A DNA stretch of 47,442 nt, taken from a virus (taxonomy: Duplodnaviria > Heunggongvirae > Uroviricota > Caudoviricetes). Position 1 is the stretch's first letter. Every line of letters starts with the position of its first letter. Shown in pieces: positions 31,858 to 34,800 of this stretch. Location: positions 1 to 47,442 of IMG/VR virus record IMGVR_UViG_2913112809_000004; one strand, given 5' to 3'. A program made the position numbers.

Positions 31858-34800
31858 ATCGGCATTATTTCCTCAGACAGGAATATATCGCAACCACTCC
31901 CCCTGAAGAACTGCGGCAAATAATACGTTTAAATAATAAAACTGCAATACACCATAACGTCAAGTTTTGTAAAGTTATTTTTAGATTTCCATTTTGTCGG
32001 CTTTGTATATAAATTTAAAAACAGTTATAAATATGCACAAAATATATTTTATACAACAATTTAATCGCGCATTTTTTAATCAAGCTTCAGAAATAAAAAA
32101 ACCCGCCTGTGGCGGGTTTTTAAGTTCACGTTTCTGGTTAACCTCGCGATACAGCTTTGCGAAGCGTAACTGAATTGAAGCAGCTTATTGCTCACTTTGC
32201 AATAGTTTTTTTTGTGCCGTGAACATTGGTTTATAAAGCATAAATTCAGCAATCATCAGCCATTGATCGATACGACGTCGACAGGTAATTAATGTCCAGT
32301 CAGGATGATTTTCATTTAACTGCTCTGCCATTTTCAGTTTGCTCATTCCCCGCCCTTCATATCGTTGTCGGAGGATGCTAATTAATCCCGGATACTCGAC
32401 CAGCACTTCGCTAATTACCCGATCAATACATAACGCCTCGGCATCAGTACAATGAGACAACCAGCTTTTCTGCTTACCGTCGAGCATTTCCCGCAAAAAT
32501 GCCTCCAGTTCCGTCTTATCAATCCCCGCTTTTTTCATCCTGCGCAGAACTTCATTGATGGCTGTTTTCGTCAATTTTTTGGATGCCAGCAACTGGTTAA
32601 ACATATTCCCCGTCTTACCGCCGCCAATATACGACCAGCGCCCCCACATACGCAGTTTTCCCTGAATCCAGACACTTTCCAGCGTGGTGAGACGAAGGTG
32701 TTCCCCGCTTTTTCCTGTATTTGTTGGGTAAATCATAAATAACCTTCCTTTCTCCAGATTTCTTGTGTGCGAAAAACACCTTCTGCATGCATCAGGCGTA
32801 ATTCTTCTTTGGTGTAATCGCTGGTTTTTACTCTCCCGTCGATTAAATCGTGGCATGAGCTACAGGCAATTGCAGCCTGCATATCGTGTGGCTTTGTCGC
32901 TGTTCCACACGTCCCCGCCAGTCTGTAATGCGCCAGCACGGAAGTTTCGGGATTGTGATTGCAGTAGCCAGGAATTCTGACCTGACACATCTGGCCCCGC
33001 GCCGCTTTACGTAAATCTGCCATCACGCAAACTCCAGCAGCTGTGCAGCCACATTTTCGACTTGTTCCGGAGAGGAAAATTTACGGAACAGAATCCAGTT
33101 CCACAGCACATTCAGTACAGATTTATAAACCTGCTGAAACTCGGTTTCGTCCATATTCGCAAACGCGATGGATTTCGCCCGACGCCCGCGGTTACCGTCC
33201 GGATAAAAATGCTCAGTGTAAAATCCGGCCTGAATGGTTACCCATTCACGGAAGGCGTCAAATGACTTGAGTAATGCCGTATCCTGGGTTCTGCGTGTCG
33301 CAACTGTATTCAGATATTGCTCTGCGGCTTCGCTCAGGGCTGGCGTATGTTCCCTGCCTACCGAGTCACACAGGTAATCAACGAAACCTGACACCAGTGT
33401 TCGTTCGCGAGGCGTGATCGCCCCACCGACCGGAGTCCAGTAATCGAATCCGAGTTGCAGGAGTTTGAAAAAAACGCTTGTGGAATGCGTAGTTACGAAC
33501 ACGCTTAAAGTCAGCGTGTATCCACTCGCCTATTTTTATTTGATGCAGAAAATCGCAACTCTCCGGCGTCGCCGGGAGAAGTAAACCAGAAGAAGTTTGT
33601 TTGACCAGTTGTATATGTGCCATCGGTTTTCTCCGGTGGCACGGTGTTACTCAGCAGGGGGTCAACCCTGTGCTGAATTGTAGATGAATTCACTCAGTCT
33701 CAAAAGCAAAAAATCCAGCCTTAAGTCCTATCTCTTTCAAAGCCTGTAATGATGTGACAAATTCATCTTCACGTAAAATAAAACCGTCCACCATAAGTCC
33801 ATCCACAAAATAAATTAACACAGCACCGCTCTTCCTTTGCTGGGATTGTAAACATTTAATGCGGCAGTGACTGACAATAGTTCCATTCTCAACGCGCACA
33901 GCATAGAGGCCATTTTCACTAAACAATTCATGCAATTCTTCGATTTTCATCTTCAGAATCCTTCCAGATAAATAGCTCTCCCCTTTTCAAGGTCCATCCA
34001 TCTTCTCCCTGCGCGCTACTCAAAACGGATGAATTCTAATTAATCTTTATTTCGAAGCAATCGCAAACGATAAAGCCAAAATAAAAAACAAATACAACAA
34101 ATACAACAAATACAACAAATACAACAAATACAACAATATCGAATGATTAACTAACCATTCGGACAACAAGGCAATATAATTTCAGTTAAAATTATTAATC
34201 CCTTATTCATGAAAAACAAAACCCGCCGAAGCGGGTTAAGTGCGGGTGCGTTGAGGATACCTGACAACTTAAAGAGTGGCGGGGATTGCTCCCCGCCGTG
34301 GCTCTTAACGTTTTTCAACTTCGTAGGCTAAATACGCCGAAAGCTCTGTGTTACCCTGTTTGATGTGCAGTTCGCATAGCGAACCGCGAACCATCCAGAC
34401 AAATACCAGAATGGTGATACAAACCACCACCAGACAAAACACATAGCTCCTTCGCATTACAGCCCCCCCCTGTTAGTTGATTTCTTACTGTTAAGAGGCT
34501 AATCTTTATGTGTCGCATACAGATATGGCCTCAGATTAATGTTAAGCGTCTTGCCGGACGCGTAATGTTAACTGGGGCTTTTCTCTATCTGCCTTTGGTG
34601 TTCATGCCCGAGGCAGATAGCCTCAAGCACCCGCAGTCATTCTACCCGTTTTAGATTTCTCAGCCAACTTTATGCTCACAACATATACAAATTTTCCGGT
34701 TAAAGCTCAACATGTTAGATAGTTTTTGCGTACGCACTATTTTTTTGTGTAAACTGCCTAAAAAGTTTAGCACCCTAAATTGTTAAGGGAAAATTAAGGA

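What the first reader, a model, noticed from the sequence alone, without database searches (positions are those of the whole stretch)
33023..33623. YbcN-like gene frameshifted at an A7 run; fourth homopolymer frameshift in the window
The N-terminal and C-terminal parts of a DUF1367-type nin-region protein are in different frames, joined at the run 33468..33474. Together with 3132..3139, 29508..29517 and about 37180..37210 this makes four homopolymer-associated frameshifts in recognisable genes within 47 kb. That density fits either systematic homopolymer miscalling in the assembly or a prophage accumulating slipped-strand mutations; the two cannot be separated by eye.
Basis: seen in the sequence. 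Interest (0 to 1): 0.45.

Follow-up and report, generated by a model that had tools for sequence, protein, structure and literature searches.

The report
Sequencing-error frameshift, not a broken gene
The split prophage gene is real in this file, but the same strain sequenced on a second platform has the gene intact, so this and four similar frameshifts are Ion Torrent miscalls of single-base runs, not biology.

Summary
The DUF1367 gene at 33023..33623 (minus strand) is split at the A7 run 33468..33474.

The cause is technical. The window is 100% identical to contig PDHY01000023.1 of Escherichia cryptic clade II strain E4742. That assembly is an Ion Torrent draft with manually closed gaps. The same strain was later sequenced by PacBio as one 5,120,753-bp contig, VATS01000001.1.

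Over 47.4 kb of window plus 17.3 kb of chromosome, the two assemblies show no ordinary substitutions. They differ at ten single-base run lengths and at one base change beside a run. At all five split genes the PacBio copy is one base shorter and the gene is intact.

T6 at the DUF1367 site is found in all 11 other sequences examined. T7 occurs only in the two Ion Torrent assemblies from that project. Runs of 6 or more bases disagree as often in the chromosome (1 of 18) as in the prophage (6 of 105).

Three side findings:
- The contig is a chimera of two prophages that lie 245 kb apart.
- An amber codon in a capsid-like gene is real.
- "YbcN-like" is a mislabel.

The parts
33023..33623 (-). DUF1367 (PF07105) nin-region gene, shown as two ORFs in this assembly. 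It is a single 199-aa ORF in the PacBio genome of the same strain.
   Evidence: Pfam hits for the two halves. The restored protein matches profile positions 1-198 of 198 at 323.9 bits. The PacBio locus L028 calls a 199-aa gene.
33468..33474 (.). A7 run (T7 on the coding strand), over-called by one base. The true length is 6.
   Evidence: T6 in the PacBio copy and in 10 other sequences. T7 only in the window and in E4385, the other Ion Torrent assembly.
3132..3139 (.). T8 run, over-called (PacBio has 7). It splits the tail-fibre assembly gene 2714..3260(-).
   Evidence: The window's source locus differs from the PacBio locus by a single extra A here, with 0 mismatches in 20.6 kb. The PacBio gene is 181 aa with a Caudo_TAP match.
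9335..9341 (.). T7 run, over-called (true length 6). It splits the 335-aa baseplate-region gene 8911..9919(-).
   Evidence: T6 in PacBio (L017, L029), in E. coli L002, and in the independent Logan assembly of run SRR6148341 (L030).
29508..29517 (.). A10 run, over-called (true length 9). It splits the 92-aa Phage_holin_3_7 gene at about 29305..29578(-).
   Evidence: A9 in PacBio and in five other assemblies. A10 only in the two Ion Torrent assemblies.
37202..37207 (.). T6 run, over-called (true length 5). It splits the 173-aa Q-family antiterminator gene 36964..37489(-).
   Evidence: T5 in PacBio, in E2348/69, in the Logan contig of SRR6148341, and in four other sources. Phage_antitermQ match at 102 bits.
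30234..30242 (.). Non-coding T9 run. The window reads T9+C where PacBio and eight other assemblies read T8+G+C, so a base next to the run was miscalled.
34083..34088 (.). Non-coding A6 run, one base longer than in PacBio. The window's length is found in no other sequence examined. Probably an over-call, but not certain.
36317..36958 (+). A 213-aa gene of unknown function that is correct in the window. The PacBio assembly is one base short at two 5-base runs (window 36533 and 36797). This shows that both assemblies carry platform-typical run errors.
   Evidence: The window agrees with E2348/69, the Logan contig and four other sources. Only the PacBio copy loses the ORF.

Best explanation
The frameshift in the DUF1367 gene is a consensus error of an Ion Torrent assembly, not a mutation. 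Flow-based sequencing infers the length of a single-base run from signal strength, and here a T6 run was written as T7. The same thing happened at four other A/T runs inside genes (3132, 9335, 29508, 37202), at one run in the flanking chromosome, and probably at two non-coding runs. In the organism the gene is an intact 199-aa ORF.

Shown directly: the platform, the identity of the strain, the differences between the two assemblies, and the run lengths in outgroups. Inferred: the base-calling mechanism itself, because no reads were inspected.
For: 1. Source. The window is 100% identical to GCA_004745255.1 contig PDHY01000023.1. PDHY00000000 is strain E4742, sequenced with Ion Torrent single-end reads of up to 400 nt at about 50x, assembled with MIRA and SPAdes, with gaps closed by hand (PMC6639607).

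2. Same strain on a second platform. PMC7716201 reports a PacBio RSII/Canu genome of E4742 as one contig of 5,120,753 bp. VATS01000001.1 has exactly that length.

3. What differs. Over the whole window plus 17.3 kb of chromosome there are no ordinary substitutions. There are ten single-base run-length differences and one base change next to a run.

4. Direction. At all five split genes the PacBio copy is one base shorter and gives a full-length ORF of 199, 181, 335, 92 and 173 aa.

5. Outgroups. T6 at the DUF1367 site occurs in 11 of 13 sequences. T7 occurs only in the two Ion Torrent assemblies from this project, E4742 and E4385. The holin site shows the same pattern.

6. Independent assembly of a run from the same range. 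Logan contigs of SRR6148341 match the window without any mismatch, yet have the shorter, in-frame run at 9335 and at 37202.

7. Dependence on run length. The share of runs that disagree is 3 of 231 five-base runs, 2 of 78 six-base, 2 of 16 seven-base, 1 of 9 eight-base and 1 of 1 ten-base.

8. Backbone control. 1 of 18 runs of 6 or more bases disagrees in the chromosome, against 6 of 105 in the window.

9. Known behaviour of the platform. Indels outnumber substitutions about tenfold. They concentrate in homopolymers, and some recur at fixed positions, mostly as A or T insertions (PMC4719071).
Against: - No reads were inspected, so the error was not seen directly.
- The PacBio assembly is not error-free. 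It is one base short at two 5-base runs, so on its own it cannot arbitrate. The argument also needs the reading frames and the outgroups.
- The review says long runs are on average under-called on this platform, whereas all five errors here are over-calls. It also describes recurrent position-specific A/T insertions, which fits.
- That SRR6148341 belongs to strain E4742 itself is inferred from sequence identity, not documented.
- The backbone control is small: 17.3 kb and 18 runs.
Confidence: 0.96

Rival explanations
1. Real slipped-strand mutations: the prophage is decaying, and the five genes are truly frameshifted in strain E4742.
For: The prophage does carry one genuine inactivating change, an amber codon in a capsid-like gene that both platforms report. 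Cryptic prophages commonly decay. The PacBio assembly does under-call some runs.
Against: For this to hold, PacBio would have to be wrong at exactly the five sites where an error restores a full-length ORF matching every outgroup. The Logan assembly of run SRR6148341, which has indel-type errors of its own, also gives the in-frame length at two of the sites. There is not a single ordinary substitution in 64.8 kb to accompany ten run-length changes. The flanking chromosome shows the same kind of difference at the same rate per run.
Confidence: 0.02
2. Real heterogeneity: the runs are hypermutable (phase-variable, or the strain is a mismatch-repair mutator), and the two DNA preparations came from different subpopulations.
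For: The same two runs (DUF1367 T7 and holin A10) are lengthened in a second strain, E4385. A slippage hot spot could produce that pattern.
Against: E4385 comes from the same Ion Torrent project and carries at least eight further one-base-longer runs relative to the window, including ones that split ParB and terminase genes. No assembly from another project has the longer runs. From established knowledge of mismatch-repair mutators, many transitions would be expected as well, and none is seen.
Confidence: 0.015
3. Programmed ribosomal frameshifting or transcriptional slippage at the T7 run yields a full-length DUF1367 protein from a gene that really is in two frames.
For: T-rich runs can act as slippery sites. 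The same window holds a plausible programmed -1 site at a T8 run in a tail-chaperone gene.
Against: A programmed site would be conserved among relatives. Here 11 of 13 sequences, including the PacBio genome of the same strain, have T6 and one continuous ORF.
Confidence: 0.005

Closest known systems
Homopolymer indel errors in flow-based sequencing (Ion Torrent PGM, 454) carried into consensus assemblies
   Same: Only run lengths differ from an independent platform on the same strain. The effect grows with run length. A/T insertions recur at fixed positions in a second assembly from the same project. Split ORFs are the visible result.
   Different: Nothing material. All five coding errors are over-calls, whereas the cited review describes long runs as under-called on average.
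Frameshifted pseudogenes in decaying cryptic prophages of Escherichia (for example Rac, DLP12, Qin)
   Same: A lambdoid prophage at the Rac-type site next to uspF, with split nin-region, lysis and tail genes. This is how real decay looks in a sequence file.
   Different: The frameshifts disappear in the PacBio genome of the same strain. The only verified lesion is a substitution, the amber codon at 18023..18025.
DUF1367 (PF07105) proteins of lambdoid nin regions
   Same: The restored protein matches the whole profile (323.9 bits). The gene sits just upstream of a YbcO-type nuclease gene and a DUF1133/Q-like gene, as in many E. coli prophages.
   Different: It is not related by sequence to K-12 YbcN, which occupies the same slot in DLP12 but is NinB-like.

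Membership tests
DUF1367 (PF07105) | Significant match to the Pfam profile over its full length | tested here: met
   The fragments match profile positions 1-52 (76 bits) and 50-198 (239 bits). The uninterrupted PacBio version matches 1-198 of 198 at 323.9 bits, against a cut-off of 25.
YbcN / NinB family | Sequence similarity to E. coli K-12 YbcN or to the NinB profile | tested here: not met
   BLASTP of YbcN against the restored protein gives a best E-value of 0.21 over 6 residues. YbcN matches NinB only weakly (21.7 bits). The window protein matches DUF1367 only.
Genuine frameshifted pseudogene | The frameshift is present in the organism's DNA whichever sequencing platform is used | tested here: not met
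   The PacBio genome of the same strain has T6 and a 199-aa ORF. The same holds for the other four genes.
Flow-sequencing homopolymer artefact | The assembly was produced on a flow-based platform | tested here: met
   PDHY00000000 is described as Ion Torrent single-end reads assembled with MIRA and SPAdes (PMC6639607). The window is 100% identical to PDHY01000023.1.
Flow-sequencing homopolymer artefact | Differences from an independent platform on the same strain are confined to run lengths, and are more frequent in longer runs | tested here: met
   No ordinary substitutions, ten run-length differences and one base change beside a run in 64.8 kb. The share of discrepant runs rises from 1.3% for 5-base runs to about 12% for 7- and 8-base runs. 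The numbers are small.
Flow-sequencing homopolymer artefact | Not confined to the prophage: the same rate per run in the host chromosome | tested here: met
   1 of 18 runs of 6 or more bases differs in 17.3 kb of backbone, against 6 of 105 in the window. The sample is small.
Flow-sequencing homopolymer artefact | Read pile-ups show mixed or ambiguous run-length calls at the sites | not testable with these tools
   Reads cannot be accessed. The nearest substitute is the Logan assembly of SRR6148341, which gives the shorter run at 9335 and 37202.
Programmed frameshift or phase-variable run | The two-frame arrangement, or variable run length, is conserved among relatives | tested here: not met
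   T6 with a single ORF in 11 of 13 sequences. T7 only in the two Ion Torrent assemblies.

The most novel reading that the evidence does not exclude
The T6 run in the DUF1367 gene and the A9 run in the holin gene are true slippage hot spots. On this reading the +1 alleles seen in two strains (E4742 and E4385) reflect real subpopulations with these prophage genes switched off, rather than recurrent base-calling errors.
Probability: 0.02. Interest if true: 0.3.

Novelty: not a real feature. Interest (0 to 1): 0.05.

Why it matters
There is no biological significance: the DUF1367 gene and the four other genes are intact in the organism.

The practical point is data quality. Any count of pseudogenes or of "prophage decay" taken from this assembly, or from the other 15 Ion Torrent genomes of the same project, will be inflated. 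Contig PDHY01000023.1 also joins two separate prophages. The PacBio genome of the strain is the better reference, but it has its own missing bases in short runs.

Tried and rejected
- An exact look-up of the 81-aa N-terminal fragment found nothing. The 159-aa C-terminal fragment exists only in the source contig. The frameshifted allele is therefore not seen in any independent assembly.

- The complete E. coli genomes and the phage collection hold nothing closer than about 92-96% identity. They served only as outgroups.

- I first took the amber codon in the capsid-like gene as a sign of genuine decay that might extend to the frameshifts. I dropped that when the PacBio copy turned out to share the amber codon but none of the frameshifts.

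- I considered that every difference was an Ion Torrent error. That is wrong: at 36533 and 36797 the PacBio assembly is the faulty one. The difference at 31899 is ambiguous.

- An apparent internal stop in the DUF1482 gene is only a C-terminus shorter by three residues.

- The 1-bp difference near 7571 in the antA-like gene, relative to an E. coli relative, is natural variation. The PacBio copy is identical to the window there.

- PADLOC gave no convincing match for the three-gene cassette 34802..36958.

Full report
**The observation**

The ORF 33378..33623 (81 aa) matches Pfam DUF1367 profile positions 1-52. The ORF 33023..33502 (159 aa) matches positions 50-198 in a different frame. An intact E. 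coli homologue is 97% identical, and the alignment has one gap in 601 columns. That gap is one extra T in a run that is T7 in the window (A7 at 33468..33474 on the + strand) and T6 in the homologue.

The other three sites are also frameshifts at runs:
- 3132..3139, in a tail-fibre assembly gene.
- 29508..29517, in a Phage_holin_3_7 gene.
- 37202..37207, in a Q-family antiterminator gene.

The run 9335..9341 splits a 335-aa baseplate-region gene. The same scan showed an in-frame amber codon, TAG where a relative has CAG, at 18023..18025 in a capsid-like gene.

**Where the window comes from**

Exact-protein look-ups led to NCBI assembly GCA_004745255.1, contig PDHY01000023.1. The window is 100% identical to it. 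PDHY00000000 is Escherichia cryptic clade II strain E4742 from Hong Kong intertidal sediment. It was sequenced with Ion Torrent single-end reads of up to 400 nt at about 50x and assembled with MIRA and SPAdes. [quoted passage not shown]

The same look-ups returned a second genome, VATS01000001.1, a single contig of 5,120,753 bp. A later paper from the same laboratory reports PacBio RSII/Canu sequencing of E4742 at 172x, giving one contig of exactly 5,120,753 bp (PMC7716201). The two assemblies are therefore the same strain on two platforms.

**The comparison**

The PacBio genome covers the whole window in four pieces, plus 17.3 kb of flanking chromosome. There are no ordinary substitutions.

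The differences are ten single-base run-length differences, with the window longer in every case. Nine are in the window and one is in the chromosome:
- 3132 (7 in PacBio, 8 in the window)
- 9335 (6, 7)
- 29508 (9, 10)
- 31899 (4, 5)
- 33468 (6, 7)
- 34083 (5, 6)
- 36533 (4, 5)
- 36797 (4, 5)
- 37202 (5, 6)
- an intergenic A7/A8 between nifJ and ydbJ in the chromosome

There is also one base change beside a run, at 30242.

At the five split genes the PacBio copy gives complete ORFs of 181, 335, 92, 199 and 173 aa, with the expected Pfam matches where a family exists.

**Which assembly is right**

PacBio/Canu assemblies can drop bases in runs, so each site was checked against outgroups.
- DUF1367 site: T6 in 11 sequences. 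T7 only in the window and in E4385, another Ion Torrent genome of the same project.
- Holin site: A9 in PacBio and five other assemblies. A10 only in the same two Ion Torrent assemblies.
- 9335 and 37202: the shorter run is found in relatives. It is also found in Logan's independent assemblies of SRA run SRR6148341. Those contigs match the window with no mismatch but have indel errors of their own elsewhere.
- 36533 and 36797: here the window is right and PacBio is wrong. The window agrees with E2348/69, the Logan contig and four other sources, and only the PacBio copy loses the 213-aa ORF.
- 31899 is ambiguous. 34083 and 30242 look like window errors.

Both assemblies therefore carry run-length errors typical of their platforms. 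The five frameshifts in recognisable genes all belong to the Ion Torrent draft.

**Rate and the backbone control**

The share of runs that disagree rises with run length: 3 of 231 five-base runs, 2 of 78 six-base, 2 of 16 seven-base, 1 of 9 eight-base and 1 of 1 ten-base.

For runs of 6 or more bases the rate is 6 of 105 in the window and 1 of 18 in the flanking chromosome. The prophage simply has twice as many such runs per kb (2.2 against 1.0) and a lower G+C content.

The pattern fits what is described for this platform. Indels are about ten times as frequent as substitutions, they concentrate in homopolymers, and some recur at fixed positions, mostly as A or T insertions (PMC4719071). E4385 shows further extra-long runs that split ParB and terminase genes.

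**Rivals**

- Genuine decay would need PacBio to err at exactly the five places where an error restores a full-length ORF matching all relatives, with no substitution anywhere in 64.8 kb.
- A mutator strain or a phase-variable subpopulation would also be expected to leave substitutions, and to show the longer alleles in some assembly from another project. Neither is seen.
- A programmed frameshift would be conserved among relatives. It is not.

**What the gene is**

The restored protein is a full-length DUF1367 family member (323.9 bits). The gene lies upstream of a YbcO-type nuclease gene and a DUF1133/Q-like gene, as in many E. coli prophages. Its function is unknown and was not pursued, since the finding concerns the frameshift.

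It is not YbcN-like by sequence. K-12 YbcN gives no BLASTP similarity and only a weak NinB match.

**Verdict**

The frameshifts are sequencing artefacts. The feature is not real, and interest is low.

Noticed in passing
window 37945..38227 (junction); whole window: The contig is a chimera of two E4742 prophages. Positions 1 to about 37944 follow the LT-II prophage next to uspF. Positions 38228..47442 follow a different prophage next to potC. In the PacBio genome the two lie about 245 kb apart in the same orientation. They share only a 671-bp repeat of 95% identity with an identical core of about 290 bp. A Logan contig of SRR6148341 stops inside that repeat, at window 37974. The Ion Torrent assembly is larger than the PacBio one, so a real 245-kb deletion is unlikely. 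The manual gap closure described in the genome announcement probably made the join.
   Followed up: yes
window 18023..18025, in gene 17648..18676 (-): There is an in-frame amber codon (TAG; CAG in an E. coli relative, Q218) in a 342-aa capsid-like gene. It is present in the PacBio genome and in the Logan assembly as well, so it is real. This prophage is probably defective in head assembly unless the codon is suppressed. The window carries no suppressor tRNA, only tRNA-Gly(tcc) and tRNA-Thr(tgt).
   Followed up: partly
window 12832..13535 (-), run 13137..13144: This is a candidate programmed -1 frameshift of a tail assembly chaperone. The gene just upstream of the tape-measure gene contains GTT TTT TTT ACA. 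The -1 frame is open from just before that T8 run down to 12832, where it abuts the tape-measure start at 12842. The run length is the same in the PacBio genome and in an E. coli relative. This is the one homopolymer-associated frameshift in the window that may be biological.
   Followed up: partly
window 27411..28629 (-): [quoted passage not shown] They lie between the lysis genes and the ParB-like gene. The host is an environmental Escherichia clade II strain.
   Followed up: no
window 36533 and 36797, in gene 36317..36958 (+): The PacBio/Canu genome of E4742 (VATS01000001.1) is one base short at two 5-base runs. This breaks a 213-aa gene that is intact in the window, in E2348/69, in the Logan contig and in four other sources. 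The 'complete' genome therefore has frameshift artefacts of its own.
   Followed up: yes
window 34802..36958 (+): A three-gene plus-strand cassette (365, 142 and 213 aa) lies between the hok/Rem genes and the Q-like gene. It has no Pfam match and only a marginal PADLOC match (PDC-S54, E = 0.0016). It is also present in EPEC strain E2348/69 and a few other genomes. It may be an accessory or defence module.
   Followed up: partly
L019 (GCA_004745385.1, strain E4385): A second Ion Torrent genome from the same project carries the same T7 and A10 over-calls. Relative to the window it has at least eight further one-base-longer runs, including ones that split ParB and terminase genes. The other 15 genomes of BioProject PRJNA412557 are likely affected in the same way.
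   Followed up: partly
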